A stretch of 64,000 nt of DNA from an uncultured Candidatus Saccharibacteria bacterium (GCA_964436545.1 CAYTCJ010000001.1:14392-78391); one strand, 5' to 3'. Counted from the stretch's first letter, positions 16,241 to 58,796 are shown. A program made the numbers and translations. Notes: generated by a model not told the origin, from the letters alone.

Positions 16241-16428
16241 TGGTTTTTTTATTTATAAAAAATGATTATTGTCTTCGATCGTTTATGTCCTGATAGCTTT
16301 AAACTAAAAAAACGACTTAAGTCGTTGGTTAAGCATTTCGTTGGTCGGACTGCCGGGAATTCCTGCCTGCCGGCAGGCAGGGAACCCGGTCTATATGCAC
16401 CTTCACCCCGTTAAATATAATTTGTTTT

Positions 16429-16502
16429 TGGTCGGGATGCTGGGAATCGAACCCAGACTACATCCACCCCATGGACGCGTACTACCACTATACTACATCC
16501 CG
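16429..16502 (-). tRNA. tRNA-Pro (anticodon GGG), 74 nt, encoded CCA
   Basis: acceptor CGGGATG/CATCCCG, D-loop AGTGGTA, anticodon loop AUGGGGU, T-loop TTCGATT. Confidence 0.75.
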
Positions 16503-21460: not shown

Positions 21461-21610
21461 AGGTTATTCTTTATTATTTATTAATAGATTTATTATAATG
21501 GAAAATTGTTTTTTATCAAGGTTAAATGTGTGGATGGCTTTGCACAAAATAAAAAAGCTCAATTGATGAGCCAAAGACTAATCTTGTTAAAATTTTATTT
21601 AGCTTTGTTA

Positions 21611-22357: not shown

Positions 22358-22359
22358 AG

Positions 22360-23430: not shown

Positions 23431-23481
23431 AGGTTTGGTTAGCTGGCGTGAGATTAATAATTATTTATGATTAAATAATAT

Positions 23482-23502
23482 AAATGCAAATCATTTGCAT
23501 TT
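23482..23502. promoter_or_regulatory. perfect 21-nt palindrome AAATGCAAATCATTTGCATTT; candidate Fur-family (Zur-like) operator in the promoter of the surface-protein/ZIP operon
   Basis: 7-1-7 inverted repeat architecture; second copy at 24705-24723. Confidence 0.5.
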
Positions 23503-23523
23503 TATAACAACTGTGTCGCTATG

Positions 23524-24111
23524 TCAATGGGACGACAGTTTTGTAAAAGTTAAGCACCTAATCCCATTTAGCCAACTCAAGGTGGTTTGGTGTTGGAAAG
23601 TAAAGTGGGCGACAGTGCCGAGGTTAATAATTTCTCGGGGTTGGTAGTATTGTTTAAAAAAATATTTTTCCGGGCACTTGTCTTGGTTTAAAAACCATTG
23701 CGACAGTTTGGTTAGAGGCATTAAGTCCACAATTAGCAGTTGGCCCAAGGGTTTTAAGACTCGGTAAGCTTCGGTTAAAATTAATTCCGGATTGGGGTAG
23801 TGGTGGCCGGAAAAGACGCAATCAAAAGTGTGCTCGGCAAAAGGTAAGTGTTCGGCATTGGCTACTGTAAACTGAGCCCAAGGATTTTGGTGTTTGGCTC
23901 GGTTAATGGCAGTGGGGGAAAGGTCTATGCCATAGCCTGTTAGGCCGGGGCAAAATTTCTTTAAGATTCTTAATTCATTGCCATTTCCGCAAGAAATATC
24001 TAAAAATTCAGGATTTGGAGGCAAGGTAAAAAGCTTAAAAAATTTTTTTTCTTCGGAAAAGTTTAACCAATTAGAAAGTTTTTTAAGCATATTTGTTAAA
24101 AGTTGTGGCAA
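23524..24111 (-). CDS. class I SAM-dependent methyltransferase
   Basis: motif I LDISCGNG, motif post-I/II pattern. Confidence 0.65.
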   Translation of the reverse strand: MPQLLTNMLKKLSNWLNFSEEKKFFKLFTLPPNPEFLDISCGNGNELRILKKFCPGLTGYGIDLSPTAINRAKHQNPWAQFTVANAEHLPFAEHTFDCVFSGHHYPNPELILTEAYRVLKPLGQLLIVDLMPLTKLSQWFLNQDKCPEKYFFKQYYQPREIINLGTVAHFTFQHQTTLSWLNGIRCLTFTKLSSH

Positions 24112-24153
24112 GGGGAGAGGTGGCTAGTTCCTCCCGCTTGCCTAAAAAAGGTT

Positions 24154-24690
24154 TTAGTGGTCGTGCCCGCCCCCAAAGGGGAGGGCTCGGGTTGCGCCGT
24201 GGGTGAGAAGCTCGGCCAGAAAAGCGGAGATCCCGTGGCCGAAAGCCACTTTTTTAAGCGGGCCCCAAATCCGCCTTTCAAAAAAACCTTTCTTTTGAAT
24301 GATTGCTACTTTATATGCTCGGCTGTCCGAGCAAATATAATAGCCTATCCTGTCCACCTTTTGTCCTGCCCAAGCCCCAGGCAGGACACAAAACACCGCG
24401 CTTTGGGTCTGCTGGTTCTTCCAGTCAGACCAAGATCCAGCGCCCCACACTACCTTCTGGTCGTGCCAGAGAGGCGGGGGGTAGTTTCTCCGTATTTGGT
24501 CATATGTTCCGAGCAGGGGGCCCGGGTACACGACCACGGCCTGAAACCCCGTGGGAAGGTTTTTTAGGAGGTCTTCCAATCCTCCTTCGTGTTGTGGCAC
24601 GCCACGGCGCGAAAAGCCGTGGTCGTGCCCATCTTGCCCCAGGGCGCACCATGGGGCGAACAAAAGCGCCAAAAACAATAGTAACAGCAT
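24154..24690 (-). CDS. GC-rich gene for a secreted protein with His motifs (HDH near N-terminus, GGGHDH at C-terminus); possibly metal-binding, possibly foreign
   Basis: signal peptide; starts right after the second palindromic box; GC far above local average; region also contains palindromic elements, so the coding call is tentative. Confidence 0.35.
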   Translation of the reverse strand: MLLLLFLALLFAPWCALGQDGHDHGFSRRGVPQHEGGLEDLLKNLPTGFQAVVVYPGPLLGTYDQIRRNYPPPLWHDQKVVWGAGSWSDWKNQQTQSAVFCVLPGAWAGQKVDRIGYYICSDSRAYKVAIIQKKGFFERRIWGPLKKVAFGHGISAFLAELLTHGATRALPFGGGHDH

Positions 24691-24704
24691 CGCTTACATA
24701 TCTT

Positions 24705-24723
24705 AATGCAAATCATTTGCATT
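24705..24723. promoter_or_regulatory. second copy of palindrome AATGCAAATCATTTGCATT in the divergent promoter between the His-motif gene and the Fur-family regulator
   Basis: perfect 19-nt inverted repeat. Confidence 0.5.
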
Positions 24724-24839
24724 TGTCAATATCCAAAAATTACAGATGGCATTAATACTCAGATGACGTTTGTAAACCTATTTTTTAGCCAGCCATCAAA
24801 TTATTTGGCTAATCGCAAGTTTTATTCTATAATTTCCAT

Positions 24840-25265
24840 ATGCAAACAGTGTGCAATATCCACAAGGAAAAAATTTCTAAGTCCCTAAAAGCGGGTAAAT
24901 TAAAAGTAACCCCCATAAGGGTTCGGTTGTTAGATATTTTAGAGCATGCCCACAAGCCCCTAAGGGTTAAGGACATTTGTCAAAAAATAAAATCCGACAT
25001 TGTTACGGTTTATCGGAATTTGGAAAATTTGGTGGCGTTGGGTTTGGTGAAAAGAATTTTTTTAGATCAAAAAGAAGCCTATTTTGAATTAGCCAATCAA
25101 GCTCACCACCACCACGCAATTTGTCAGCTGTGTGGTTTGGTTGTAGATGTAAAAATTGCTCACCATAACCAATTGGAAAAAACCGCTTTAAAAACTTCCG
25201 GGTTTGCCAATATTAGTAGTCATAGTTTGGAATTTTTTGGAATTTGTAAAAAGTGTCAAAAGTAA
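24840..25265 (+). CDS. Fur family transcriptional regulator (Zur/Fur-like)
   Basis: winged-helix N-terminus, HHHH and two CxxC pairs in the C-terminal half. Confidence 0.8.
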   Translation: MQTVCNIHKEKISKSLKAGKLKVTPIRVRLLDILEHAHKPLRVKDICQKIKSDIVTVYRNLENLVALGLVKRIFLDQKEAYFELANQAHHHHAICQLCGLVVDVKIAHHNQLEKTALKTSGFANISSHSLEFFGICKKCQK

Positions 25266-25269
25266 AAAT

Positions 25270-25797
25270 ATGATTTTAACCGGTAAACAAGTGCTCTTAA
25301 GACCTGTAAAGCTTAGCGATGCCAAGCGGTTTGTAAAATGGTTTAATGACCCTCAGGTGAATAAATTTATGTTTGTTAGAGGTATTACTTTAGCAGAGGA
25401 AAAGAAGTATATCTTAAATAGAATTCAAGGTAAGGTGAAAGATGTTTTGCATTTTTGTATAGACACCCAAACCGGAGTGCATATTGGCGCAGTGTCTTTA
25501 GAAAGTATTCAAAAACGCAATAAAAATGCCAGCTTTGGGATTATTATTGGCGATAAAAATTATTGGAGTAAGGGTTATGGGGAAGAAGCCTCTAGGTTGA
25601 TTTTGGATTATGGATTTAAAAAATTAAAACTGCATCGTGTTGAGCTGGATGTGTACAGTTACAATCACCGAGCGATGGGGCTATATAAAAAATTGGGTTT
25701 TAAAAAAGAAGCGGTGAGACGAGAGCACAATTTTTATAATGGGAAATTTTACGATACAATTATTATGGGTTTGTTAGACAGAGAGTGGAAAAATTAA
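25270..25797 (+). CDS. GNAT family N-acetyltransferase (RimJ/RimL-like)
   Basis: GNAT A/B motif region HRVELDVYSYNHRAMGLYKKLGF. Confidence 0.75.
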   Translation: MILTGKQVLLRPVKLSDAKRFVKWFNDPQVNKFMFVRGITLAEEKKYILNRIQGKVKDVLHFCIDTQTGVHIGAVSLESIQKRNKNASFGIIIGDKNYWSKGYGEEASRLILDYGFKKLKLHRVELDVYSYNHRAMGLYKKLGFKKEAVRREHNFYNGKFYDTIIMGLLDREWKN

Positions 25798-47267: not shown

Positions 47268-48548
47268 ATGAACAAATTATTGTTAATTTGGAAAACTAAA
47301 GATCTTAGAACCAAAATTCTAATTGTGTTTGGTTTGCTTTTAATTACTCGTGTGTTAGCCAGCGTGCCGATTCCGGGCATTGATGCCTCTAACTTAAAAG
47401 CGCTGTTTCAACAAAGTCAATTTTTGGGTTTGCTAAATATTTTTTCCGGAGGCGGACTTACCAATTTCTCCATTGCCATGATGGGAGTAGGGCCGTACAT
47501 TACCGCATCCATTATTATGCAATTGTTAACGATTATTGTGCCCAGTTTGGCGGAATTACAAAAGGAAGGCGGGGAAGCCGGTAGAGCGCAAATTAATATG
47601 TATACTCGGTATTTAACTATCCCCTTAGCAATTTTGCAAGGTTTTGGCACTATTCGGTTATTGCAAAGCCAAGGGGGAGCTGCGGTGTTGGGCAATTTTA
47701 ATGCTTTCCAATGGTTTGTTACGTTGTTATCCATTACTGCCGGGACTTTGTTTTTAATGTGGCTGGGAGAAATTATGTCCGAATACGATGTAGGTAATGG
47801 AGTGTCTTTAATTATTTTTGCCGGGATTGTGGCTCAATTGCCATCTAGTTTGTTGTTTTTAAAAGATTGGTATGACCCCAGTAAATTACCGGTAGTGTTA
47901 GGTTTTGTGGCTGTAATTTTGGTGGTTATTGCCGGTGTGGTGTTAGCTACCGAAGCTCAAAGAAATGTACCAATTGCATATGCTAAACGGGTGAGAGGAA
48001 ATAAATTGTTTGGGGGAGTAGATACGCATTTGCCTTTAAGGTTAAACCAAGCAGGTGTAATTCCCATTATTTTTGCCATTTCCATTATGCTTTTTCCCGC
48101 TATGGTAGCTCAGTTTTTTATTAACGCGAAGTCGCCTTTCTTAGCTAATAATGCGCAAAGAGTGATTGATTTGTTTAATTCCCAAGGGTGGTTTTACGGG
48201 ATTGTGTATTTTGTTTTAGTGATGGCTTTTACTTATTTTTACACCGCGGTAATTTTTAACCCCACGGAAATTGCAGAAAATGTGCAAAGGAATGGCGGGT
48301 TTATTCCGGGACTTCGGCCTGGCACCCAGACTGCGGAATTTTTAGACAAAGTTTTAAACAGAATAACTTTAGCCGGGGCATTTTTCTTAGCGCTGATTGC
48401 GGTTTTGCCGTTGATTATGCAAAATTTAAGTGGCGCTCGGGCTTTGAGTTTTGGTGGAACTTCGCTCTTGATCGCTGTGTCAGTAGTTATTGAAATAATC
48501 AAAAAGATTGACGCCCAATTGACTATGCACGATTACGAAGGCTTTTAG
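47268..48548 (+). CDS. secY: Preprotein translocase subunit SecY
   Basis: 10-TM pattern, conserved SecY segments. Confidence 0.95.
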   Translation: MNKLLLIWKTKDLRTKILIVFGLLLITRVLASVPIPGIDASNLKALFQQSQFLGLLNIFSGGGLTNFSIAMMGVGPYITASIIMQLLTIIVPSLAELQKEGGEAGRAQINMYTRYLTIPLAILQGFGTIRLLQSQGGAAVLGNFNAFQWFVTLLSITAGTLFLMWLGEIMSEYDVGNGVSLIIFAGIVAQLPSSLLFLKDWYDPSKLPVVLGFVAVILVVIAGVVLATEAQRNVPIAYAKRVRGNKLFGGVDTHLPLRLNQAGVIPIIFAISIMLFPAMVAQFFINAKSPFLANNAQRVIDLFNSQGWFYGIVYFVLVMAFTYFYTAVIFNPTEIAENVQRNGGFIPGLRPGTQTAEFLDKVLNRITLAGAFFLALIAVLPLIMQNLSGARALSFGGTSLLIAVSVVIEIIKKIDAQLTMHDYEGF

Positions 48549-48640: not shown

Positions 48641-49006
48641 ATGACTAAAGACGAATTTGAAAATTTAATTACCGATGCGGTTAATGCGCTCCCAAAAACC
48701 ATTCAAGATAAATTGAATAATGTGGAAATTGTTTTGGAAGAGGGTGAGTCGCCGAATAACAGTTTGTTTGGTTTGTATCACGGGGTGTCGCAAATTGCCC
48801 GCGGTTCGGCTTATGGAAGTAGCCCGACTTTGCCGGATAAAATTACCTTGTGGCAGGGAACGATTGAAAAGTTTGCAGGTGAGACATCTAAAATTCCCAG
48901 TTTAGTGAGGCGCGTGGTGTGGCATGAAATTGGTCACCATTTTGGTTTTAATGAGGAAGAAATTAGAAAATTGGAAAAGAAATGGGAAGCCGAGGGGAAG
49001 GTATAG
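48641..49006 (+). CDS. zincin-like small metallopeptidase-fold protein (HExxH: VVWHEIGHHFGF)
   Basis: single HExxH motif near C-terminus; family assignment tentative. Confidence 0.45.
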   Translation: MTKDEFENLITDAVNALPKTIQDKLNNVEIVLEEGESPNNSLFGLYHGVSQIARGSAYGSSPTLPDKITLWQGTIEKFAGETSKIPSLVRRVVWHEIGHHFGFNEEEIRKLEKKWEAEGKV

Positions 49007-49087
49007 ACCACAGATACATTGAGGCATGCAGATTACAGATAAACTGATTAGCTCAGCATTGACAGGTTAATCAATAAGGTGTAAAAT

Positions 49088-49486
49088 TTGGAGTTAATTG
49101 TTAATTTATGGTATAATATTTATATGGTAGATATAACTCAATATCCAAAGAGACCTGAGCAACCTCGTCGTTTAGAAGTGGAAGCTTTAGGTACAAAGAG
49201 TTCACCAGAAGTAGATAATAGAACAGGGGAAGAATTAGCAGGTGGAGCTAGAACTGAGGTTGCTAAAGCCATTTCTGAACAGGTGGCTCAAATTGAGGCT
49301 GGAGAGGCGCCGGCTGTTGACCCGAATATTTTGAAGGGAGCAAAACAAGAGGCCCAAGATCCAAACGCGCATGTAGATAATTTACAAAGATTTCTAAGTG
49401 CATTAAATAGTGGCGAAGCATTCGATCCAGCAGAACTAACAGATAATGTTTTAAGTCCAGAAAGAGACAAAGCCGGACTGAATTAG
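49088..49486 (+). CDS. hypothetical acidic, low-complexity protein (likely start Met 49124)
   Basis: ORF only. Confidence 0.35.
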   Translation: MELIVNLWYNIYMVDITQYPKRPEQPRRLEVEALGTKSSPEVDNRTGEELAGGARTEVAKAISEQVAQIEAGEAPAVDPNILKGAKQEAQDPNAHVDNLQRFLSALNSGEAFDPAELTDNVLSPERDKAGLN

Positions 49487-49531
49487 AAATAAAATTTTAA
49501 ATTTTTTTGATTAGTAAAAAACAAAAATAAA

Positions 49532-52084
49532 ATGCTCTTGGGTTTCGATGCAGTACAAATTGCCTTTTTAATTTTAGTTGCCCTAGTTATTGTTTTTGGC
49601 TGGGTGTTTTTTTATTTTTTTAAAAAACACGTTTATCATAAAGGGCATGTAGTGCCTCGCACGCTGGATTGGGTATTTTTGGAAATTCAAATGCCCAAAG
49701 AAAATAGTGAAGATAAAGACCAACAGCGAACTAAAAGTGAAGAAGAAAAAAAAGCCCTCATTGCTGTTGGTGAACAACTATTTACGACGCTATCGGAAAG
49801 CGGACACAGTAAGGGGTGGCTCAAGGGTAAGGATTATTATAGTTTTGAAATTGCCTGTACTGATAAGAAAATTTCTTTCTACATTAATTGTCCGAAACAT
49901 TTACAGCAATTGGTGGAAAAACAACTCCAAGCCCAGTATCCTCATGCGTTTGTGGAGCAGGTGAAGGGGTATAATCCGTTTCAAAAAGGTTCAGAGGTGG
50001 AAGCCAAGGAATTACAATTAAATAAAAAATATGTTTACCCGTTTCGCACTTATAAGAACACCGAAACCGATCCGTTAAACGCGCTTACCAATGCCATGAG
50101 TAAACTTCAGGAAGGTGAGGGTGTGGCGATTCAGTATGTTATTAGTCCGGCAGGCACAGCTTGGCAATCTACCCCTCGGCATATGGCTTTGGAAGTCCAG
50201 CAAGGCAAGAATCCGGAGTTAATTGAACGGGGACATATTTACAAAGTGTTTATTGGGTTTCGACGCTTTTTAGCCAGTGTTTTAACCGGCACTACCGGTC
50301 AGCAAAGCCAAGGTTCGCATGTGCATAAAGATTTAAGCGGTTACGGGGCGCCAATTCAACTTACCCCCATGCAACAGGAAATTGTTAAACGGCTCGAAGA
50401 AAAGGCCAGCCGACCGGGTTATAAAATGAACATTCGTTTGGTGACTTCTTCGGTAATTCCGGGAAATGCCAAAATGCATATGCATAATTTGGTTTCCAGT
50501 TTTTTGCAATATAATTTTCCGCCCTTTAACGGTTTAAGGGAAAAACGAAGAAACAAGAATGAAGTGTTGATTGATTACATTTTTCGGGTATTTAGAGATT
50601 ATGGTAAAACCAATATTATTAATACCGAAGAGATGTGCTCGTTGTGGCATTTGCCCACGCCGTTTATTGAGACACCGAATATTAAATGGTTAATTTCCAA
50701 AAAAGCTCCTCCGCCCATTAATGTGCATCAGGCAGGTTTGTTGATTGGTAAAAATATTTATCGGAACGTGGAAACTCCCATTTATATGGGCCGGGAAGAC
50801 AGACGCCGACATACTTATATTTTGGGCAGAACCGGAAGCGGTAAGTCCGTGCTGTTGTCCAACATGGCCATTCAGGATATTAAAAACGGCGAAGGTTTAT
50901 GTGTAATTGATCCGCACGGCGATTTGATTCAAGATATTTTATTAAATTGTCCCAAAGAACGAGCCGAAGACATTATTGTTTTAGAACCGTTCGATATGGA
51001 GCGTCCGATTGGTTTAAATATGCTGGAAGTGGACAGCGAAGAACAAAAAGATTTTGCCGTGCAGGAAATGATTTCGATTTTTTATAAATTGGTTACCGAT
51101 CCGGCCATGCTGGGGCCCATGTTTGAACATAATATGCGTAATGCCATGTTGACTTTAATGGCCGACGAAGAACATCCGGGTACCATAACCGATGTGCCGA
51201 GGATTTTTACCGATACCGAATTTCAACGTTATAAATTATCTAAAGTGAAAGATCACGTAGTGAGATTATTCTGGGAAAAAGAAATGGCGAAAACCTCGGA
51301 TTTTCACAAATCGGAAATGTTGGGGTATTTGATTTCCAAGGTGGGTCGGTTTGTGGAAAATACCATGATGCGCAATATTGTCGGGCAATCCAAGAGTGGT
51401 TTTAATTTTAGAAAAGTGATGGATGAAGGCAAAGTGTTATTGGTAAATTTATCCAAAGGCCGAACCGGTGAAATTAATGCCAAGTTATTGGGGTTAATTC
51501 TTGTTTCTAAAATTCAAATGGCAGCATTATCTCGAGCGGATATACCGGAAGAAAAACGTCGCGACTTTTATTTGTATGTAGATGAGTTCCAAAATTTTAT
51601 TACCGATGCGTTTTCCTCAATTTTATCGGAAGCGAGAAAATATAAGTTAAATTTAATTATCGCACACCAGTATTTGGGACAGTTAGAAACTCAGGCCGGG
51701 GCTCAAGGGGCTGGCAGTAAAGATTTACGCGATGCGGTATTTGGCAACGTGGGGACTATGGTGGTGTTTAGAACCGGAGCGGAAGATAGCGAAGTTTTAG
51801 GCAAGGAATTTAGCCCGACTTTTAACCAGTTTGATTTGGTAAACATAGACAGGTATAATGCTTATGTAAAACTCATGGTCAATGGCACAGCCAGTAAGCC
51901 GTTTAATATGGCGACAATGCCTCCGCGTAAAGAAGGCACGGAAGAAGTCGCCAATGCCATCCGCCAATTGTCTCGTTTAAAATATGGACGAGCCAGAGCC
52001 GAAGTGGAAGCTGAGCTTTTGGAAGCCGGACAAGTGGCAGAGAGTATGGCCGAAGCCTTGCCGGCCATTGAACGAGGTTTGTAA
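49532..52084 (+). CDS. membrane-anchored TraG/TraD/VirD4-like (type IV coupling protein family) P-loop ATPase, 850 aa
   Basis: N-terminal TM; Walker A LGRTGSGKS; Walker B YVDEFQNF; IIAHQYLGQL...FGNVGT motif typical of TraG/VirD4 family. Confidence 0.65.
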   Translation: MLLGFDAVQIAFLILVALVIVFGWVFFYFFKKHVYHKGHVVPRTLDWVFLEIQMPKENSEDKDQQRTKSEEEKKALIAVGEQLFTTLSESGHSKGWLKGKDYYSFEIACTDKKISFYINCPKHLQQLVEKQLQAQYPHAFVEQVKGYNPFQKGSEVEAKELQLNKKYVYPFRTYKNTETDPLNALTNAMSKLQEGEGVAIQYVISPAGTAWQSTPRHMALEVQQGKNPELIERGHIYKVFIGFRRFLASVLTGTTGQQSQGSHVHKDLSGYGAPIQLTPMQQEIVKRLEEKASRPGYKMNIRLVTSSVIPGNAKMHMHNLVSSFLQYNFPPFNGLREKRRNKNEVLIDYIFRVFRDYGKTNIINTEEMCSLWHLPTPFIETPNIKWLISKKAPPPINVHQAGLLIGKNIYRNVETPIYMGREDRRRHTYILGRTGSGKSVLLSNMAIQDIKNGEGLCVIDPHGDLIQDILLNCPKERAEDIIVLEPFDMERPIGLNMLEVDSEEQKDFAVQEMISIFYKLVTDPAMLGPMFEHNMRNAMLTLMADEEHPGTITDVPRIFTDTEFQRYKLSKVKDHVVRLFWEKEMAKTSDFHKSEMLGYLISKVGRFVENTMMRNIVGQSKSGFNFRKVMDEGKVLLVNLSKGRTGEINAKLLGLILVSKIQMAALSRADIPEEKRRDFYLYVDEFQNFITDAFSSILSEARKYKLNLIIAHQYLGQLETQAGAQGAGSKDLRDAVFGNVGTMVVFRTGAEDSEVLGKEFSPTFNQFDLVNIDRYNAYVKLMVNGTASKPFNMATMPPRKEGTEEVANAIRQLSRLKYGRARAEVEAELLEAGQVAESMAEALPAIERGL

Positions 52085-52112
52085 AATTTCTAATTCCTAA
52101 TTTTAATCAATA

Positions 52113-52346
52113 ATGGCAGAAGAAAATTATATTAGCATTTTAGGTAAGTTTTTAAGTAATCTGTTACAGAATGGTAAAATTAGCATTAAAGATTCGGTAA
52201 TTATTATGAAGGCCTTTGAGCCGGTGTGTACGAATATAAAAACTCGGCAAGATTTAATTCAGTTTTTAGATAAGTATGTGGGGTATTATTGGGAATTAAA
52301 AACATTAAAAAGTCAGTTATTAGATTCACATCATAAATTTGATTAA
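52113..52346 (+). CDS. hypothetical protein (77 aa)
   Basis: ORF only. Confidence 0.35.
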   Translation: MAEENYISILGKFLSNLLQNGKISIKDSVIIMKAFEPVCTNIKTRQDLIQFLDKYVGYYWELKTLKSQLLDSHHKFD

Positions 52347-52354
52347 ATAACTTT

Positions 52355-52645
52355 ATGTCAGGACATGGACATGGACATGGGCACGAATCACATGGGGGCG
52401 GGCACGAGTCACACGGTGGCGGTGGGGGTGGTGGTAAAGGGTACTTAGGGAAGTTTTTTAAGGAATTTTCCCCTTTATTTTTAGCCGGCACCATGTTGTT
52501 TAATATGTTTGACCAAAAAGGGGTGGTGGAGTTTGTAAACCACTTTTCTAATCCGGCTGTGGAATTTTTTAGCGCTCCCTTTGTTAAAGGGGGTGGTGGG
52601 GGCGGGGGGCATGGCGGTGGGGGCGGGCACGGGGGACATCATTAA
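52355..52645 (+). CDS. His/Gly-rich small protein (HGHGHGHESHGGGHESHGG... ...GGGGGHGGHH); putative metal-binding
   Basis: low-complexity termini around a hydrophobic core; opposite-strand Pro/Cys ORF considered an artefact. Confidence 0.4.
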   Translation: MSGHGHGHGHESHGGGHESHGGGGGGGKGYLGKFFKEFSPLFLAGTMLFNMFDQKGVVEFVNHFSNPAVEFFSAPFVKGGGGGGGHGGGGGHGGHH

Positions 52646-52733
52646 TTTGCTTTTATTAAATAAATCGTTTATAATAGTTATGTTTTAAACGATAGTTTAG
52701 AAACAAAAAGAAGTATTTAATCAAAATAAAAAT

Positions 52734-53351
52734 ATGGACAATCATTCAAATTTGGCGTTAATCGCCCAAATGATAGATTCGGCGGAAAAGAATATTCAAA
52801 CCGCCAAACAGTTGTTAAGAGAAATGCTGGGCGGGTTGCCGGTTAAAGGCAGTGTGGGGGCTTCGGAAAAAATGCAAAGCTTTGTAGTTTCCGAAGGCGG
52901 AAAAATTATTGAAGGCAGTTTTGACGGGCAAAATATGTCCGGGCCGGATGGTAAGCAATATCCGGTGCCGGCTAACTATGCTTCTAAATCAAAGCTTGTG
53001 GTGGGCGATATTTTAAAGTTAACCATTGCCGAAGACGGCTCCTTTATTTATAAACAAATTGGTCCGGTGGAAAGAAGAAAGGCTTTGGGCATATTAATGG
53101 TAGATGAACGAGGTGATTTTAGAGTCCTCGCAGAAGGTAAGTCCTTTAGAGTGCTTACCGCGTCTTTAACTTACTTTAAGTCCGAACCTGGCGATGAAGT
53201 AACCATTGTTTTACCGGCCACCGGTGACGTAGAGTGGGCAGCCGTGGAAAATGTCATTAAAAAAGGTTCGGGTGGAGCGGTGGTGGATCAGGAAATGTCC
53301 GAGGCTTCGCCTAAAAAGAAACTCAAACTGGATGATGATGAAGAGCTTTAG
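52734..53351 (+). CDS. hypothetical protein (205 aa), acidic C-terminus
   Basis: ORF only. Confidence 0.4.
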   Translation: MDNHSNLALIAQMIDSAEKNIQTAKQLLREMLGGLPVKGSVGASEKMQSFVVSEGGKIIEGSFDGQNMSGPDGKQYPVPANYASKSKLVVGDILKLTIAEDGSFIYKQIGPVERRKALGILMVDERGDFRVLAEGKSFRVLTASLTYFKSEPGDEVTIVLPATGDVEWAAVENVIKKGSGGAVVDQEMSEASPKKKLKLDDDEEL

Positions 53352-53420
53352 TCCACAGATGCACAGATAGCACGGATGGCACCGATTAATATTTGATCTT
53401 CTATAATATGGATCAAAAAT

Positions 53421-54122
53421 ATGGATAAAACTCCATCAGGAACTAATATATCACTAACACAAAAAATCACCGGAATTTTGCAAAGTCAGCCGGTGATTTT
53501 GCAATTTTTTAAGTTTGCCGGCATTGGATTTTTAACCACAGCATTTGATTTTTTATTGTTTAATATTCTCTCCAAGGTTTTGCACATTAGTGCGGGTATG
53601 CCTCTGGCAATAGTTAATATTTTTACTTTTATTTTGGCTTTAGCGCATAGCTTTATTTGGAACGCGAATTGGACTTTTAACAGCCATCAGGCAATTTCTG
53701 AATTAAAGATTTTTGCCCAATCCATCATAATTGGCACAATTGGAGTGGTGGGAGTTTTATTGTCCGTAGTAGGGGGAAAAGTTATGGCGAATTATACTTA
53801 TTATGTAATTATTTTATTGGTGTTGATATGTATGGAAGTGGTGTTGTGGAAGAGTTTTGCCTTAGTCTGGTTTGCGGATAAGACGAAGATGTTTCCCAAA
53901 ACCATTTTAACTTTTATTTTAGTGAGCGTGATTGGCGCGAGTATTAACAGTGGTTTGGTGGGGGCAGTTACCAAATATTATCCGCTTACCGATAATGTGG
54001 ATTTCAACAAAAATTTAGCCAAAGTGTTCGCTAATGCGATTTCTTTAATTTGGAATTTTGTGGGGTATAGGATATTGGTGTTTAAGAAACAACCGCAAGT
54101 GAGTTTGACAAAATTTAAGTGA
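53421..54122 (+). CDS. GtrA-like membrane protein (polysaccharide synthesis flippase-associated family), possibly duplicated domain
   Basis: FFKFAGIGFLTTAFDFLLFNIL and NFVGYRILVFK motifs. Confidence 0.6.
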   Translation: MDKTPSGTNISLTQKITGILQSQPVILQFFKFAGIGFLTTAFDFLLFNILSKVLHISAGMPLAIVNIFTFILALAHSFIWNANWTFNSHQAISELKIFAQSIIIGTIGVVGVLLSVVGGKVMANYTYYVIILLVLICMEVVLWKSFALVWFADKTKMFPKTILTFILVSVIGASINSGLVGAVTKYYPLTDNVDFNKNLAKVFANAISLIWNFVGYRILVFKKQPQVSLTKFK

Positions 54123-54367
54123 TAGCTTATCATAAACTTATGAGTAAAGCAGTAATTAAATTTACAGTTTCCGCTTGGTGGACTTTGCAAATATTCGCAA
54201 AGTCTGTGGTTTAATTTGTCTTTTTCCTTTTTAACCACCTTCTTTGCGAAGGTGGTTTTGTTTTGGCCGGATTCATATCGGTTGTTTGATATGAACAGCA
54301 TCCAGCGCAAAACTACAATGCAGGCGGTAAGTGCGCTTGGGTACTCGCTTGCAAAGAGAGAGGAAAA

Positions 54368-54643
54368 ATGTTTGAGAAAGTGTCCGAAGTGTTGGCGTCA
54401 CTGTGTGTTGACGGGGCCGTTCTGGGATCGGCTACTGTTGAGGTAACACTTAAACGTGGAAGCGTGAGCGTGGCTCACCTTGACATAAGGGTTGAGGCAG
54501 ACGGGAGCTGTAGGATCACCAGTGCATTGGTCGATGAGCAGTTCCACCCAGCGATCAAGGAGACGCTGGAAATGCACAAACCGGATTATGTACAAGTTTC
54601 CGACTTCAGTGTCACGGGGCGTGGACTCTGGGACTTCGATTGA
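54368..54643 (+). CDS. hypothetical protein (91 aa) in a GC-rich island, flanked by two hairpin terminators (54228-54255, 54655-54695)
   Basis: GC well above genome average; own terminator. Confidence 0.35.
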   Translation: MFEKVSEVLASLCVDGAVLGSATVEVTLKRGSVSVAHLDIRVEADGSCRITSALVDEQFHPAIKETLEMHKPDYVQVSDFSVTGRGLWDFD

Positions 54644-54772
54644 TATTCATCACGGAGGGTGTGGTTGGCATAAAAACCTACCACACCCAATAAGTTTATT
54701 AACGGAGTAAACCCTAAATTACTAAGTATTTGCAGACTTTTTTTGTTTAAAAAAAAATGGTAATATGTATTT

Positions 54773-56422
54773 ATGTCCGTTTTATATAGAAAATATCGAC
54801 CACAAGTTTTTGCTGAAGTAGTTGGGCAACAGCCAATTATTACCACTTTGCAAAACCAAATTACCACGGGGCGAATTGCCCACGCTTTTTTATTTGTAGG
54901 AAGTCGGGGAATTGGCAAGACTTCCGTAGCTCGCATTTTAGCTAAGGCAATAAATTGTCAATCAGTAAATCAGTCAATCAGTAAATCTGCTAATCAGGAA
55001 CCCTCTTTGTCCCTTAATAGTTCGGGACATCTCCCCCTGTCTGCCGACAAGGCAGGCCCAGAGGGGGAGAAAAATATTGTACAGGCTTTGCCTGATGCCT
55101 TAGGTGAGGCGTGCGGTAAGTGCGAAGTATGCAAAGCAATTGAGCAAGGTAATTTTATCGATTTAGTAGAAATCGATGCCGCTTCCAATACCGGAGTGGA
55201 TAATATTCGTGAATTAATTGAGCACACTAAATTTGCTCCGGCAAAAGCCAAATATAAGGTGTTTATAATTGACGAAGCCCATATGCTGTCTAAGGGCGCT
55301 TTTAATGCTTTGCTAAAAACTTTAGAAGAGCCACCGAGTCATGCCGTATTTATTTTAGCCACAACTGAAGTGGGTAAAGTGCCACCTACCATTATTTCTC
55401 GGACGCAAAGGTTGGATTTCAAGCGCGTTTCCATTGAAGTAATTGAAGCCTATTTGCGTAAAATTTTAGCTTGGGAAACCGCTCAAGTAGATGAGCAAAT
55501 CATTAAGTTAATTGCCGTGAATGCCGAAGGGGGGATGCGAGATGCTTTGTCTTTGTTAGACAAGGTCTTAAGTTTAGGGGCGCAGGCCGAGCTGGAGTCG
55601 GTTTTAAGACTTTTGGGCATAACCAATATTTCCAAAATGGAAAAGTTAGCCGAATTAATTTTTACTCACCAATCTCGCTTAATTCCGACGTTCTTAAAAG
55701 ATTTATACGAAGAAGGAGTAGATTTTATTGCCTTTAATAAGGACTTTTTAGAATATTTAAGAAAATTGTTGATTGTCAAAATATATGAATCCAGTCCGGA
55801 TTGGGGACTGACTCCGGCTCAAATTACTACTTTAGAGACAGTAAGCCATGCTCAAACCGAAGCCAAACTCATTAACACGATTAGATTATTTTTGCGTTCA
55901 TTAAAGGAACAAAATTCCGCGCCGAGTGTGGATTTGCCCGTATTATTAGCCAGCGTAGAAGCATCCTTTAGCCCAACTGCGGGATTGGGAGAAGTAAAAA
56001 AAAAGTCCAGTTTAAGTGAAGCTCCGGTCGTGGCATCTAAGGCTGGCGAAATAACTAGTCCCAGTTTACAGCCAGCGGTTAATTTGGCAGACAGCATAAC
56101 TTTAGAACAAGTTGAAGAAAAATGGACTGCATTTGTACAAGCGATTAAAGCTTTTAACGGACCTTTGGCCAATTTATTACGCACCGCGCAAATTTTTCAA
56201 GTTAAAGTGAGTAAGGTTTTTATTCTGGTTAAATACCAATTTCATAAGCAAAATTTGGAACAAGCCAAAAATAGTGATTTAACCGCTAAGGTGTTAAACG
56301 AGATTTACCATCTGCCTTTGGAATTGATTGTGGTAGTTAAGGAAGAAGCAGAAGATCAAGCGCCCACTAAGGTGGATGTAAGCTCGGCTTTGCAAGTTTT
56401 TGGGGGAGAAGTGATTGAGTAA
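54773..56422 (+). CDS. dnaX: DNA polymerase III subunit gamma/tau with in-frame repeat/palindrome insertion
   Basis: AAA+ GSRGIGKTS, clamp-loader motifs; insertion 54958-55070 encodes SVNQSISKSANQ...PLSADKAGPEGEK. Confidence 0.9.
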   Translation: MSVLYRKYRPQVFAEVVGQQPIITTLQNQITTGRIAHAFLFVGSRGIGKTSVARILAKAINCQSVNQSISKSANQEPSLSLNSSGHLPLSADKAGPEGEKNIVQALPDALGEACGKCEVCKAIEQGNFIDLVEIDAASNTGVDNIRELIEHTKFAPAKAKYKVFIIDEAHMLSKGAFNALLKTLEEPPSHAVFILATTEVGKVPPTIISRTQRLDFKRVSIEVIEAYLRKILAWETAQVDEQIIKLIAVNAEGGMRDALSLLDKVLSLGAQAELESVLRLLGITNISKMEKLAELIFTHQSRLIPTFLKDLYEEGVDFIAFNKDFLEYLRKLLIVKIYESSPDWGLTPAQITTLETVSHAQTEAKLINTIRLFLRSLKEQNSAPSVDLPVLLASVEASFSPTAGLGEVKKKSSLSEAPVVASKAGEITSPSLQPAVNLADSITLEQVEEKWTAFVQAIKAFNGPLANLLRTAQIFQVKVSKVFILVKYQFHKQNLEQAKNSDLTAKVLNEIYHLPLELIVVVKEEAEDQAPTKVDVSSALQVFGGEVIE

Positions 56423-57850: not shown

Positions 57851-58237
57851 ATGAAAATATTAGGAATAGATTATGGTGAAAAGCGGATAGGTTTGGCCAT
57901 TAGTGATGAGTCCCAAACAGTTGCATTTGAATTGGATATTTTATCACCAAAAGAATTCTTTAATCAGATTCATCAGCTCATAAACAGTCAGCAAATCAGC
58001 AAGATAATTTTGGGATGGCCACTGAATATGAGCGGAGAAGAAACAAAAAAAACTAGAGAAGTAGAAAATTTTAAATTTAAAATTAAAAAAAAAACTGGCT
58101 TGCCTGTGGAAATTATTGACGAACGTCTTTCATCGCAAATGGCAGAGCACCTAAGCCACAGTAAAAAAAATTTAGACAGTCTGGCGGCTCAAATACTTTT
58201 GCAAAATTATTTAAATAAAAATTATGAAAAAAAATAA
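57851..58237 (+). CDS. ruvX: YqgF/RuvX Holliday-junction-resolvase-like nuclease
   Basis: MKILGIDYGEKRIGLAISDE. Confidence 0.8.
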   Translation: MKILGIDYGEKRIGLAISDESQTVAFELDILSPKEFFNQIHQLINSQQISKIILGWPLNMSGEETKKTREVENFKFKIKKKTGLPVEIIDERLSSQMAEHLSHSKKNLDSLAAQILLQNYLNKNYEKK

Positions 58238-58796
58238 TTTTTTTAGTTTCAGGCAAAATTTAACTATAAATTTACATGGCAAGCAAGGGTTTACGCTTAT
58301 AGAGCTTTTAGTCGTGATTGCCATTATTGGTTTGTTAGCCTCAGTGGTTTTGGTTAGTTTGAATTCTGCCAGAGCTAAGGCGAGAGATACTAAAAGAAAG
58401 GCGGATTTAGCTCAAATTAGTAAGGCTTTGGAATTATATTACGACAAATATGGCACTTACATTACGGCTGGAGGTGGTTGGCGATCAACTCCTTCTAATC
58501 CGGCTACGGCTTGTGGTTGCGGGTGGCTCGGGTATCAAGATACCGGAAACTATACCTTGGCAGTAACCGCAGTATTAAAGAATGAGGGTTTTTTAAGTCA
58601 AAGTTTAATTGATGATCCCAAAGGTCCTAATCCGAGTTATATGATTTATACTTGTGGAGGTGCGGGAAATGCTCAGAGGTATAATTTATATGCTACGTTG
58701 GAAAATCCAACTACAGCGGAAACATTAGCTATTGATAGCAGTTGTGTGCCAACGCTTGATACTGATTATGGTAAAAATTATGTAATCGGAAATTAA
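58224..58796 (+). CDS. type IV pilin / pseudopilin (prepilin-type N-terminal cleavage/methylation domain)
   Basis: KQGFTLIELLVVIAIIGLLAS. Confidence 0.8.
   Translation: MKKNNFFSFRQNLTINLHGKQGFTLIELLVVIAIIGLLASVVLVSLNSARAKARDTKRKADLAQISKALELYYDKYGTYITAGGGWRSTPSNPATACGCGWLGYQDTGNYTLAVTAVLKNEGFLSQSLIDDPKGPNPSYMIYTCGGAGNAQRYNLYATLENPTTAETLAIDSSCVPTLDTDYGKNYVIGN

What the first reader, a model, noticed from the sequence alone, without database searches (positions are those of the whole stretch)
48641..54122. Accessory module after secY: TraG/VirD4-like membrane ATPase with small unknown and His/Gly-rich proteins replaces the canonical adk-map-infA-rpsM-rpoA tail
- Immediately after secY the conserved alpha-operon genes are missing.
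- In their place are a zincin-like HExxH protein, an acidic low-complexity protein and an 850-aa membrane-anchored P-loop ATPase with TraG/VirD4 coupling-protein motifs (LGRTGSGKS; DEFQNF; IIAHQYLGQL…FGNVGT).
- These are followed by a 77-aa protein, a His/Gly-rich 96-aa protein, a 205-aa protein and a GtrA-like membrane protein.
- A type IV pilin gene lies 4 kb downstream.
- Together this could be a DNA-translocation/uptake or surface-appendage module characteristic of episymbiotic small-genome bacteria. Its composition is not a described system.
Basis: partly seen in the sequence, partly recalled or inferred. Interest (0 to 1): 0.55.

Follow-up and report, generated by a model that had tools for sequence, protein, structure and literature searches.

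The report
Core chromosomal T4SS coupling-ATPase operon
Right after secY this small-genome (Patescibacteria/Doudnabacteria-like) bacterium carries a membrane-anchored conjugation-type "coupling" ATPase that is not an accessory island. It is a vertically inherited core gene, as conserved as SecY, with unlinked, uncharacterised partner proteins, so its real job in these episymbionts is an open and testable question.

Summary
All the described ORFs exist at the stated coordinates.

**The ATPase is a real VirD4/TraD-type coupling protein (T4CP).**
- It passes four Pfam T4CP/DUF87 cut-offs.
- TrwB and DotL are the best solved sequence relatives.
- Its profile aligns over 654 columns, including the DUF8128 N-domain, with a two-domain ATPase that sits next to relaxase-family genes on Bacillus and Embleya plasmids.
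- It fails the FtsK, HerA and VirB4 membership tests.

**It is a core gene, not an accessory one.**
- dN/dS is 0.024 (secY 0.018).
- Full-length orthologues were found in 80 species-representative genomes across most Patescibacteria lineages.
- Their tree follows taxonomy.

**How far the neighbourhood is conserved.**
- The full order secY-zincin-acidic-ATPase-77-His/Gly-205-GtrA-dnaX holds only in close Doudnabacteria.
- Phylum-wide, what recurs is a small, fast-evolving ORF upstream, the 205-aa protein (tandem small β-barrels; 28/83 loci) and dnaX (27/82).
- In Microgenomatia the neighbours are XerC/D-type recombinase and DivIC genes instead.
- No virB4 or relaxase lies nearby.
- The pilin link is unsupported.

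**Function is inferred.** It is most likely a nucleic-acid or substrate translocation motor, either feeding a T4SS encoded elsewhere or exapted for another role.

The parts
47268..48548 (+). secY, last gene of the S10-spc ribosomal cluster (context, not part of the module)
   Evidence: translation. PF00344 on the orthologues. 98.8% aa identity and dN/dS 0.018 vs L087.
48641..49006 (+). 121-aa Zincin_1 (HEIGHH) protein; neighbour only in close Doudnabacteria
   Evidence: Pfam PF06262, E 6.5e-18. Present in L001-L003, L087 and L088; absent in the P0105 contig and in more distant loci.
49059..49117 (+). promoter-like elements upstream of the acidic ORF: TTGACA-17-TAAAAT (49059-49087) and an extended -10 TGgTATAAT (49109-49117) 6 nt before ATG 49124
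   Evidence: 11/12 consensus match. The extended -10 was read from the sequence. These are consensus matches only, not proof of function.
49124..49486 (+). 120-aa acidic, low-complexity small protein, the Doudnabacteria form of the small ORF that precedes the ATPase gene in most lineages
   Evidence: A same-strand ORF of 80-330 aa lies directly upstream in 53 of 74 loci with enough flank. Median pI is 4.6 for the N-terminal 60% and 9.7 for the C-terminal 40%. Sequence families are not detectably related (hhalign prob <1%). It evolves fast: 60.7% aa identity and dN/dS 0.48 vs L087, and no BLASTP match to the L001 counterpart.
49532..52084 (+). 850-aa single-pass membrane-anchored T4CP-type ATPase (DUF8128 N-domain plus VirD4/TrwB-like NBD with an all-alpha insertion)
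49559..49615 (+). N-terminal transmembrane helix (aa 10-28), followed by a KKH..K cluster, suggesting the rest of the protein is cytoplasmic
   Evidence: Kyte-Doolittle scan: 72 of 80 family members have exactly one N-terminal hydrophobic helix. The AF2 model has a helix at 7-45. Topology is inferred from the positive-inside rule.
49670..50731 (+). N-domain (aa 47-400), Pfam DUF8128 in the precomputed annotation of the orthologues
   Evidence: PF26449 listed for all homologues. It aligns with the N-half of the plasmid two-domain ATPase and with phrog_5156. pLDDT is mostly 85-94, except for loop 235-273.
50732..52021 (+). ATPase domain (aa 401-830): RecA-like NBD with a helical insertion (helices about 503-631)
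   Evidence: Pfam TrwB_AAD_bind 36.6 bits (cut-off 20.5), T4SS-DNA_transf 34.5 (20.1), DUF87 32.6 (23.2), TraG-D_C 25.3 (22). Foldseek to TrwB gives TM 0.60-0.65.
50825..50848 (+). Walker A GRTGSGKS (aa 432-439)
   Evidence: G432, G435, G437 and K438 are invariant in 25 sequences down to 32% identity.
51581..51586 (+). Walker B D684-E685 (LYVDEFQNF)
   Evidence: Invariant columns in alignment A1.
52113..52346 (+). 77-aa helical small protein, restricted to the Doudnabacteria group
   Evidence: Orthologues in L001, L087 and L088 at the same position. dN/dS 0.12. No family hit.
52355..52645 (+). 96-aa protein with His/Gly-rich termini and a hydrophobic middle, restricted to the Doudnabacteria group
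   Evidence: Positional orthologue in L001 at 35% identity over 81 aa, and in L087 and L088. dN/dS 0.07. The 96-aa ORF on the opposite strand (52204-52494) is the mirror of the Gly/His codon runs.
52734..53351 (+). p205: N-terminal long helix, two small beta-barrels, acidic tail ending DDDEEL; widespread Patescibacteria protein with no Pfam family
   Evidence: At least 8000 homologues, all unnamed and without Pfam. 42 invariant columns. AF2 pLDDT above 90 for the barrels. Only weak OB/S1/KOW-like fold matches, best E 2e-3. Found next to the ATPase gene in 28 of 83 loci. dN/dS 0.031.
53421..54122 (+). GtrA-like membrane protein, last gene of the putative transcription unit
   Evidence: PF04138, E 2.5e-15. 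Weakly conserved: 36% vs L001 and 54.5% vs L088. Also lies next to dnaX in L024 and L030.
54178..54257 (+). two intrinsic-terminator-like hairpins after the GtrA gene
   Evidence: 54178-54207, and 54233-54257 followed by TTTTGTTTTG.
54773..56422 (+). dnaX (DNA polymerase III tau/gamma), the most widely conserved neighbour of the ATPase/p205 pair
   Evidence: Within 10 kb downstream of the ATPase gene in 27 of 82 loci, in several named lineages. Pfam DNA_pol3_delta2 and DNA_pol3_gamma3 on the orthologues.
58224..58796 (+). prepilin-type pilin gene; not shown to belong to the module
   Evidence: N_methyl, E 1.5e-8. Same position after ruvX in L087 and L003. Separated from the module by dnaX, htrA and ruvX, and not linked in more distant loci.

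Best explanation
Bases 49.06-54.26 kb form a separate, chromosomal, vertically inherited transcription unit. Its core product is a type IV coupling protein (T4CP) of the monoderm two-domain subfamily: one N-terminal membrane helix, a cytoplasmic DUF8128 domain, and a VirD4/TrwB-like nucleotide-binding domain with an all-alpha insertion.

**Shown:** the gene content, the domain layout, homology to ATPases that sit beside relaxase-family and virB4-like genes on Bacillus and Embleya plasmids, intact catalytic motifs, selection as strong as on secY, spread across the phylum with a taxonomy-like tree, absence of virB4 or relaxase nearby, and recurrent neighbours (a small fast-evolving upstream ORF, p205, dnaX).

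**Inferred:** the protein forms a membrane-attached hexameric ring that uses ATP to recruit a substrate and thread it through its central channel. The substrate is most likely nucleic acid or a nucleoprotein. The motor most likely hands it to, or receives it from, the Patescibacteria T4SS encoded elsewhere in the genome. The small upstream protein would act as a docking adaptor, regulator or substrate, by analogy with CagZ-Cag-beta and TraM-TraD. p205 would be a binding partner through its beta-barrels and acidic tail.

The zincin, 77-aa and His/Gly genes (close Doudnabacteria only) and the GtrA gene (which also recurs next to dnaX in L024 and L030) are neighbours whose functional link is not established.
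For: **Identity**
- Four Pfam families pass their gathering scores on aa 405-755.
- The best NCBIfam hits are TraD/VirD4 models.
- The best solved sequence relatives are TrwB (3e-8) and DotL (3e-6).
- The AF2 model (pLDDT 83) superposes on TrwB with TM 0.60-0.65, and also on Cag-beta and DotL.
- The family profile aligns with the 913-aa ATPase of B. subtilis plasmid NZ_OX419568.1 over 654 columns, including the N-domain (prob 100%, E 6e-46).
- That gene and its Embleya homologue lie next to 'replication-relaxation family' genes, TcpE/PrgI-family genes and a second, VirB4-like ATPase.
- Walker A and B are invariant.

**Core status**
- dN/dS is 0.024 vs 0.018 for secY.
- Identity to L001 is 80%, the same as secY.
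- There are 22,883 cluster representatives at E<1e-3.
- In an NJ tree Patescibacteria are monophyletic against the plasmid outgroups and named classes cluster.

**Own unit**
- A promoter-like site lies at 49059-49087 and terminators at 54178-54257.

**A T4SS probably exists in this group**
- VirB4 is found in 2417 of 3035 Patescibacteria genomes, including the one genome classed as Doudnabacteria (PMC12102498).
- T4CP genes are often encoded away from virB4 (same paper).
Against: - No virB4, VirB3/TcpE-like or relaxase homologue is detectable in the 64-kb window or within 10 kb in 82 related loci (BLAST-level test).
- Only 148 of 5713 Patescibacteria T4CP homologues lie near virB4, and relaxases are nearly absent (PMC12102498).
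- T4CP homologues are found in more genomes (2918) than VirB4 (2417).
- In S. epibionticum the T4SS is essential but the T4CP homologue is reported as not essential.
- The recurrent neighbours are replication, recombination and division genes (dnaX, XerC/D-type recombinase, DivIC, RmuC), not secretion genes.
- Two-domain homologues occur in lytic SPO1-like phages.
- There is one membrane helix. pLS20 gene 48, for example, has two (PMC8557374); that two is usual for canonical T4CPs is from my own knowledge.
- Substrate, oligomeric state and partner contacts are untested.
Confidence: 0.5

Rival explanations
1. Exapted housekeeping DNA motor. The T4CP no longer works with a T4SS. It acts at the membrane on the cell's own chromosome, in segregation, dimer resolution, or replication or repair-coupled DNA handling. 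It would work together with p205 and in step with DnaX, XerC/D and the divisome, much as FtsK/SpoIIIE does.
For: - Selection is as strong as on secY.
- T4CP homologues occur in 96% of Patescibacteria genomes vs 80% for VirB4.
- Neighbours: dnaX in 27 of 82 loci and p205 in 28 of 83. In Microgenomatia, a XerC/D-type tyrosine recombinase (8 loci) with DivIC. In other loci, RmuC and ribonucleotide reductase.
- No T4SS or relaxase genes lie nearby.
- PMC12102498 itself states that exaptation cannot be ruled out.
Against: - A canonical ftsK is annotated in the saccharibacterium TM7x (PMC10768705), so no gap needs filling, at least there.
- The T4CP homologue is reported non-essential in S. epibionticum.
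- The protein lacks the FtsK gamma domain, and the FtsK_SpoIIIE Pfam hit is below its cut-off.
- Synteny with housekeeping genes is expected for any old chromosomal gene.
- My search for FtsK in 1.38 Mb of held Patescibacteria DNA found none, but that is only about 1.5 genome equivalents, so it says little.
Confidence: 0.22
2. Import motor. The ATPase runs as the cytoplasmic-membrane engine that pulls host-derived nucleic acid (RNA or DNA) into the episymbiont. The nucleic acid would arrive through the T4SS pilus or channel or the competence pilus. p205 (S1/OB-like barrels) would receive the incoming strand.
For: - Patescibacteria lack nucleotide synthesis.
- The essential T4SS of Saccharibacteria has no known substrate (PMC11665869).
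- A 2026 preprint reports uptake of host RNA with an unresolved mechanism and tubular structures that may be T4SS pili (10.64898/2026.06.21.733656).
- The best, though weak, fold matches of p205 are RNA or ssDNA-binding barrels: RNase R, SSB, RPA, S1.
- Weak NCBIfam hits to the archaeal DNA-import ATPases CedD and CedB.
- In ABY1, T4SS loci co-localise with comF, recG and radA (PMC12102498).
Against: - There is no direct evidence.
- The Ced hits cover only the P-loop region.
- The p205 barrels are charge-neutral by my count, and no fold match reaches E<1e-3.
- The T4CP homologue is non-essential in S. epibionticum, although several paralogues per genome could mask this.
- No known T4CP works in import.
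Confidence: 0.13
3. No module. The ATPase is a stand-alone gene, and the small ORFs, p205, GtrA and dnaX are unrelated housekeeping neighbours kept together only by slow genome rearrangement in reduced genomes.
For: - Zincin, p77 and His/Gly are restricted to close relatives.
- The upstream small ORFs share no detectable sequence homology between lineages.
- GtrA and dnaX are far less conserved than the ATPase.
- p205 often directly precedes dnaX, and it may belong with dnaX rather than with the ATPase.
Against: - p205 stays with the ATPase in loci that have no dnaX (L005, L010, L011, L018), and in L028 and L033 it lies upstream instead.
- A small ORF with the same acidic-then-basic layout precedes the ATPase in 53 of 74 loci, across lineages whose other neighbours differ.
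- Genes are tightly spaced on one strand between a promoter-like site and terminators.
Confidence: 0.12
4. Remnant of an integrated conjugative element, phage or defence island (HerA or Mad8-like ATPase).
For: - Homologues occur on 728 plasmids and in 53 phage records.
- PADLOC hits: mad8 at 4e-15 and weak HerA hits.
- A tyrosine recombinase lies next to the gene in some lineages.
Against: - GC content is not deviant.
- No tRNA genes were found nearby (the window's only two are at 13.5 and 16.4 kb); flanking repeats were not searched for.
- The same position is kept between housekeeping genes in five related genomes.
- dN/dS is 0.024, and the tree follows taxonomy.
- No other defence or transfer gene lies in the locus.
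- The recombinase has XerC/D size and domain layout and is paired with DivIC.
Confidence: 0.03

Closest known systems
VirD4/TrwB/TraD-type type IV coupling proteins (TrwB of R388, PDB 1e9r/1gl6; Cag-beta 8dol; DotL 6sz9)
   Same: - P-loop NBD with a helical (all-alpha) insertion between Walker A and Walker B.
- N-terminal membrane anchor.
- Pfam TrwB_AAD_bind, T4SS-DNA_transf and TraG-D_C all pass their cut-offs.
- Best solved sequence and C-half fold matches.
   Different: - An extra 350-aa DUF8128 domain sits between the anchor and the NBD.
- One membrane helix instead of the usual two.
- Only 16-18% identity in structural alignments.
- Far below the cut-offs of every curated NCBIfam TraD/VirD4 model (58 bits vs 366).
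- Chromosomal, single-gene, with no virB4 or relaxase nearby.
Two-domain T4CP-like ATPases of monoderm and archaeal plasmids (e.g. WP_213380696.1 on B. subtilis plasmid NZ_OX419568.1; WP_331738717.1 on an Embleya plasmid)
   Same: The same DUF8128-plus-ATPase layout, aligned end to end (hhalign prob 100%, E 6e-46, 654 columns; tblastn covers query residues 80-815 at 23-29% identity).
   Different: - The plasmid genes sit in transfer clusters next to replication-relaxation family, TcpE/PrgI-family and VirB4-like genes. The window gene does not.
- The Patescibacteria clade is separate in the tree.
- The role of the plasmid proteins as T4CPs is itself inferred from context and annotation.
Unlinked ('orphan') VirD4-type T4CP homologues of Patescibacteria reported by Quinonero-Coronel et al. 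2025 (PMC12102498)
   Same: This gene is almost certainly one of them. They reported 5713 homologues in 2918 of 3035 genomes, with 97% not near virB4.
   Different: In the text I read and searched (parts of the results plus term searches; 'secY' and 'Doudnabacteria' do not occur in the main text), that paper does not describe:
- the DUF8128 N-domain
- the selection level
- the upstream small ORF
- the p205 and dnaX linkage
- the post-secY position in Doudnabacteria
- the phage homologues
FtsK/SpoIIIE DNA translocases
   Same: Membrane-anchored P-loop ATPase of the same superfamily. In some lineages the neighbours are XerC/D-type recombinase and DivIC genes.
   Different: - The FtsK_SpoIIIE Pfam hit is only 16.2 bits against a cut-off of 24, and covers the P-loop only.
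- No Pfam or NCBIfam match to an FtsK gamma-domain model appeared in the scans.
- One membrane helix instead of four or more.
- About 245 aa between the Walker motifs, with a helical insertion.
VirB4/TrwK ATPases
   Same: About 800 aa with an N-domain plus a C-terminal ATPase. TrwK is the top Foldseek hit over about 940 columns (E 2.6e-15).
   Different: - TM-score is only 0.25-0.30 (rmsd 17 A).
- TIGR00929 scores 14.9 bits vs a cut-off of 643.
- hhalign against a plasmid VirB4-like ATPase matches only the P-loop (prob 19%).
PHROG family phrog_5156 (unknown function; SPO1-like Bacillus phages, phage G gp156, Geobacillus phage D6E)
   Same: Full-length match to the family profile (aa 78-836, E 1e-94). 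Both domains are covered at 20-24% identity.
   Different: Encoded by lytic phages. No function is known, so it gives no mechanistic lead.

Membership tests
Type IV coupling protein (VirD4/TraG/TraD/TrwB) | Sequence match to the family's NBD/AAD profiles above curated thresholds | tested here: met
   PF10412 36.6 bits (cut-off 20.5), PF02534 34.5 (20.1), PF12696 25.3 (22). TrwB and DotL are the best PDB sequence hits. However, all curated NCBIfam TraD/VirD4 models are far below their cut-offs, so it belongs to none of those named subfamilies.
Type IV coupling protein (VirD4/TraG/TraD/TrwB) | Intact Walker A and Walker B motifs | tested here: met
   G432, G435, G437, K438, D684 and E685 are invariant in 25 sequences down to 32% identity.
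Type IV coupling protein (VirD4/TraG/TraD/TrwB) | All-alpha domain inserted in the RecA-like NBD | tested here: met
   The AF2 model has helices at about 503-631 between strands 481-484 and 635-639. Superposition on TrwB gives TM 0.60-0.65. This rests on a predicted model only.
Type IV coupling protein (VirD4/TraG/TraD/TrwB) | N-terminal membrane anchor | tested here: met
   One hydrophobic helix at aa 10-28, and the same in 72 of 80 family members. It differs from the usual two helices.
Type IV coupling protein (VirD4/TraG/TraD/TrwB) | Genetic association with a T4SS (virB4) and/or a relaxase | tested here: not met
   None in the 64-kb window or within 10 kb in 82 loci (BLAST-level sensitivity). 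The literature reports 148 of 5713 near virB4. Distant homologues on plasmids do have this association. Whether a T4SS lies elsewhere in this genome could not be tested.
Type IV coupling protein (VirD4/TraG/TraD/TrwB) | Hexameric ring that binds and translocates substrate to a T4SS channel | not testable with these tools
   No multimer prediction or experiment was available.
FtsK/SpoIIIE | FtsK_SpoIIIE motor domain, gamma (KOPS-binding) domain and a multi-pass N-terminal membrane domain | tested here: not met
   PF01580 scores 16.2 bits vs a cut-off of 24, on aa 404-445 only. No gamma-domain hit. One membrane helix.
HerA helicase | Full-length HerA match (HAS barrel plus ATPase) and a NurA partner | tested here: not met
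   DUF87 passes only on aa 406-509. NCBIfam HerA models score 11-15 bits vs cut-offs of 800-970. None of the module's other proteins matched a nuclease family in the Pfam or NCBIfam scans. HerA fold hits are weaker than TrwB.
VirB4 | VirB4 profile match over both domains | tested here: not met
   TIGR00929 scores 14.9 bits vs 643. hhalign to a plasmid VirB4-like ATPase gives prob 19%, P-loop only. Foldseek E is 2.6e-15 but TM only 0.28, so homology of the N-domains remains open.
Integrative conjugative element / genomic island | Deviant composition, integrase plus attachment repeats, patchy distribution, transfer genes | tested here: not met
   GC is 0.40-0.42, like the flanks. The locus is syntenic in five relatives. 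dN/dS is 0.024. No transfer genes. Flanking repeats were not searched for.
Anti-phage defence system (PADLOC models) | Match to a defence ATPase together with its partner genes | tested here: not met
   Only the ATPase domain hits mad8 (4e-15) and HerA (7e-9). The six other proteins have no hits.

The most novel reading that the evidence does not exclude
A conjugation-derived coupling ATPase was captured by the ancestor of Patescibacteria and became a core, T4SS-unlinked nucleic-acid motor. Together with a fast-evolving small partner and the tandem-barrel protein p205, it would either import host nucleic acid (the missing engine of nucleotide scavenging) or move the cell's own chromosome in step with replication and division.
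Probability: 0.3. Interest if true: 0.8.

Novelty: new variant of a known kind. Interest (0 to 1): 0.5.

Why it matters
Patescibacteria make up a large share of bacterial diversity. They cannot make nucleotides, and they depend on a T4SS whose substrate is unknown.

A conjugation-type motor that is kept in nearly every genome, is as constrained as SecY, lies apart from the T4SS genes and lacks a relaxase is a concrete handle on that problem. It points to three proteins that can be tested together in the one genetically tractable group (Saccharibacteria): the ATPase, its small upstream partner and p205.

It also shows that the DUF8128 two-domain form links Patescibacteria, monoderm plasmids and SPO1-like phages.

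If the gene simply serves the distant T4SS, the finding is a useful annotation. If it is exapted, it is a new kind of core machinery.

Tried and rejected
- **FtsK replacement test.** tblastn of the E. coli FtsK motor against the window plus 82 loci (1.38 Mb) found nothing. That is only about 1.5 genome equivalents, so it is uninformative.
- **Defence system.** PADLOC gave only ATPase-domain hits. Rejected.
- **Mobile island.** Composition, synteny and selection all argue against it.
- **Remote homology among the upstream small ORF families.** hhalign between four groups gave probabilities below 1%. Only position and charge layout are shared. The window and L001 versions do not even match by BLASTP.
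- **p205 in plasmid transfer clusters.** The HMM found none.
- **Domain fusions in long relatives (1267-2006 aa).** Extensions have no Pfam domain, or only TPR repeats. No functional lead.
- **R388 accession.** Not in the plasmid collection.
- **P0001 look-up.** No contig on record.
- **Rfam.** No RNA family in or near the module.
- **Literature.** No paper mentions DUF8128.

Full report
**Observation**

The window is a Patescibacteria chromosome segment. The closest relatives of its proteins are named Candidatus Doudnabacteria.

- It carries rpsL, rpsG, fusA and tuf, and then the S10-spc ribosomal cluster ending in secY at 47268-48548.
The quoted motifs are in the 850-aa protein.
- Pfam confirms Zincin_1 for the 121-aa protein, GtrA for the 233-aa protein and a prepilin N-methylation motif for the gene at 58224.
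- I recognised no adk, map, infA, rpsM or rpoA among the translations listed. In 1-31 kb only ORFs of at least 100 aa were listed, so small genes such as infA are not excluded there.
- The small ORFs are real. Four related genomes have the same order and sizes, and substitutions against L087, the closest of them, are mostly at third codon positions.

**What the ATPase is**

- The C-terminal half (aa 405-755) passes the Pfam gathering scores of TrwB_AAD_bind, T4SS-DNA_transf, TraG-D_C and DUF87. FtsK_SpoIIIE is below its cut-off and covers the P-loop only.
- NCBIfam's best hits are TraD/VirD4 models, but all are far below their cut-offs. HerA, VirB4 and Ced models touch only the P-loop.
- A profile of 25 family members finds TrwB (3e-8) and DotL (3e-6) as the best solved relatives.
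- The AF2 model (pLDDT 83) shows a long N-terminal helix, an alpha/beta N-domain (aa 47-400) and an ATPase domain with a helical insertion at about 503-631.
- By Foldseek the C-half superposes on TrwB (TM 0.60-0.65), Cag-beta and DotL. TrwK/VirB4 has the lowest E-value because both of its domains are aligned, but its TM-score is only 0.28.
- Precomputed Pfam annotation puts DUF8128 on the N-domain of every homologue. No paper in the library mentions that name.

**The decisive comparison came from plasmids**

- 728 plasmids of Bacillus, Streptomyces, Clostridium, Staphylococcus, haloarchaea and Sulfolobus encode homologues that cover both domains at 23-29% identity.
- On a B. subtilis plasmid the 913-aa homologue is followed by a 'replication-relaxation family' gene, a TcpE-family gene and a second, VirB4-like ATPase. 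On an Embleya plasmid it lies between a VirB4-like ATPase and a replication-relaxation gene, with PrgI-family and NlpC/P60 genes nearby.
- The Patescibacteria profile aligns with the B. subtilis protein over 654 columns, including the N-domain (prob 100%, E 6e-46). With that plasmid's VirB4-like ATPase it aligns only at the P-loop (prob 19%).
- The window protein therefore belongs to a two-domain T4CP subfamily of monoderm transfer systems. This fits the published view that the Patescibacteria T4SS derives from monoderm conjugation machinery (PMC12102498).
- The same layout also occurs in SPO1-like Bacillus phages, phage G and Geobacillus phages (phrog_5156, E 1e-94).

**Core, not accessory**

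Values are for the window against L087, the closest relative:

| Gene | aa identity | dN/dS |
|---|---|---|
| secY | 98.8% | 0.018 |
| ATPase | 96.8% | 0.024 |
| p205 | 92.2% | 0.031 |
| htrA | 84.5% | 0.058 |
| dnaX | 71.0% | 0.124 |

- Against L001 the ATPase and secY are both 80% identical, and the ribosomal proteins 63-76%.
- The 50%-identity library holds 22,883 representatives at E<1e-3 and 5,995 at E<1e-30, many of them full-length.
The 80 loci kept are full-length orthologues (39-76% identity). They come from Doudna-, Magasanik-, Uhr-, Falkow-, Staskawicz-, Berkel-, Peregrini-, Gracili-, Curtiss-, Levy-, Woese- and Saccharibacteria and from Paceibacterota.
- In an NJ tree Patescibacteria are monophyletic against two plasmid outgroups, and named classes cluster together. 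This points to vertical descent.
- GC content matches the flanks, and PADLOC gives nothing beyond the ATPase domain.
- Published counts agree. VirD4-type homologues occur in 2918 of 3035 genomes and only 148 of 5713 lie near virB4. VirB4 occurs in 2417 genomes, and relaxases are almost absent.

**What travels with it**

- The full order secY-zincin-acidic-ATPase-77-His/Gly-205-GtrA-dnaX-htrA-ruvX(-pilin) is kept in close Doudnabacteria (L001, L087, L088).
- It is loosened in a more distant relative, which has no zincin gene and about eight extra genes inserted.
- Across 82 loci, my ORF clustering shows three recurrent features:
  1. **A small same-strand ORF directly upstream**, in 53 of 74 loci with enough flank. 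It has an acidic low-complexity N-part (median pI 4.6) and a basic helical C-part (median pI 9.7), but no detectable homology between lineages. The window's copy is acidic throughout. It is the fastest-evolving gene in the locus (60.7% identity, dN/dS 0.48).
  2. **p205**, in 28 of 83 loci. These include loci without dnaX and two loci where p205 lies upstream of the ATPase gene.
  3. **dnaX**, in 27 of 82 loci.
- In Microgenomatia the neighbours are instead a XerC/D-type tyrosine recombinase with DivIC, and upstream ribonucleotide reductase. In other loci RmuC appears.
- No VirB4, TcpE/PrgI or relaxase-family homologue is detectable in any locus.

**p205**

- It has at least 8000 unnamed homologues without a Pfam family.
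- The model shows a long N-terminal helix, two small beta-barrels (pLDDT above 90) and a disordered acidic tail ending in a hydrophobic residue.
- Fold matches are weak only. The best (E 2e-3) are to OB, S1 and KOW-type barrels of RNase R, SSB, RPA, Mpa and eIF5A.

**Transcription signals**

- A near-consensus promoter-like site lies at 49059-49087.
- An extended -10 element sits six bases before ATG 49124.
- Two terminator-like hairpins lie at 54178-54257.
- Together with short intergenic gaps on one strand, this suggests a unit separate from the ribosomal operon.

**Mechanism**

- *Shown:* a single-pass membrane-anchored protein with intact T4CP catalytic motifs under strong constraint.
- *Inferred from the T4CP family:* a hexameric ring at the inner face of the membrane that uses ATP to recruit and thread a substrate.
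- *Most parsimonious reading:* it serves the T4SS encoded elsewhere. The one genome classed as Doudnabacteria in the published data set has VirB4, and T4CP genes are often unlinked from virB4.
- *Against that reading:* relaxases are missing. The T4CP homologue is reported non-essential in S. epibionticum while the T4SS is essential. More genomes have a T4CP homologue than have VirB4. The recurrent neighbours are replication and division genes.
- *Weights:* about 0.5 for T4SS coupling, 0.22 for a T4SS-independent chromosome-handling role, and 0.13 for a nucleic-acid import motor. A 2026 preprint reports host-RNA uptake with an unresolved mechanism.
- The small upstream protein may be an adaptor, regulator or substrate, by analogy with CagZ-Cag-beta (PDB 8dol). 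This is untested.

**Comparison and verdict**

The ATPase is a member of the T4CP family by sequence, motif and fold tests. It fails the genetic-context feature. It is not FtsK, HerA or VirB4.

Orphan T4CP homologues in Patescibacteria were already reported in 2025. As far as I can tell from the library, the following are new:
- the two-domain (DUF8128) identity, shared with monoderm plasmids and phages
- housekeeping-level selection and vertical inheritance
- the recurrent small upstream ORF
- the p205 and dnaX linkage
- the post-secY position in Doudnabacteria

The words 'accessory' and 'module with pilin' are not supported.

Noticed in passing
window 14750-16430: A 1.7-kb stretch between a parB-like gene and tRNA-Pro has raised GC (about 0.45 vs about 0.39), no credible ORF, and no Rfam family even at E<0.1. 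It could be an undescribed structured RNA or a decayed gene.
   Followed up: partly
window 21600-25300: By eye this looks like a metal-homeostasis cluster. It holds a ZIP-like transporter, a 356-aa secreted protein, a His-rich 178-aa ORF with a signal-peptide-like start on the minus strand (24154-24690) and a Fur/Zur-like regulator (24840-25265). The region is GC-rich, with overlapping ORFs on both strands.
   Followed up: no
window 49109-49126: An extended -10 element, TGgTATAAT, ends six bases before the ATG of the acidic ORF. The mRNA may therefore be leaderless. A second, near-consensus promoter-like site lies 30 bases further upstream.
   Followed up: no
window 49124-49486 vs L087 5589-5954: The acidic small ORF is only 60.7% identical (dN/dS 0.48) between genomes whose flanking genes are 97-99% identical. 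It has no BLASTP match to its positional counterpart in L001. Such speed is unusual inside an otherwise highly constrained locus.
   Followed up: partly
window 54123-54772: The 650-nt GtrA-dnaX spacer holds two terminator-like hairpins and a 91-aa ORF (54368-54643). That ORF is absent from L001, L087 and L088, where the spacer is about 60-200 nt (in L087 the GtrA gene is called only as a 72-aa fragment). It is probably non-coding.
   Followed up: partly
phage records, e.g. NC_023719.1 90994-93111 (phage G gp156); SPO1-like phages: Lytic Bacillus and Geobacillus phages encode full two-domain homologues of the ATPase (phrog_5156, function unknown). The family therefore exists in phage genomes as well; I did not inspect their gene neighbourhoods.
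   Followed up: partly
P0105 contig, between the ATPase gene and the p205-like gene: A more distant Doudnabacteria-like genome has about eight unannotated genes (114-529 aa, no Pfam) inserted between the ATPase gene and the 207-aa/GtrA/dnaX genes. This suggests a variable cargo site inside the locus. No DNA was available for that contig.
   Followed up: no
L028, L043; Table S3 of PMC12102498: Some genomes carry two or three T4CP-type paralogues, sometimes in tandem. Such redundancy could explain the reported non-essentiality of one copy in S. epibionticum.
   Followed up: no
record titles of L008, L009, L018, L019, L021 and others: Many species-representative MAGs that carry this Patescibacteria-type locus are titled 'uncultured Gammaproteobacteria' or 'Bdellovibrionales'. 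The deposited names look unreliable.
   Followed up: no
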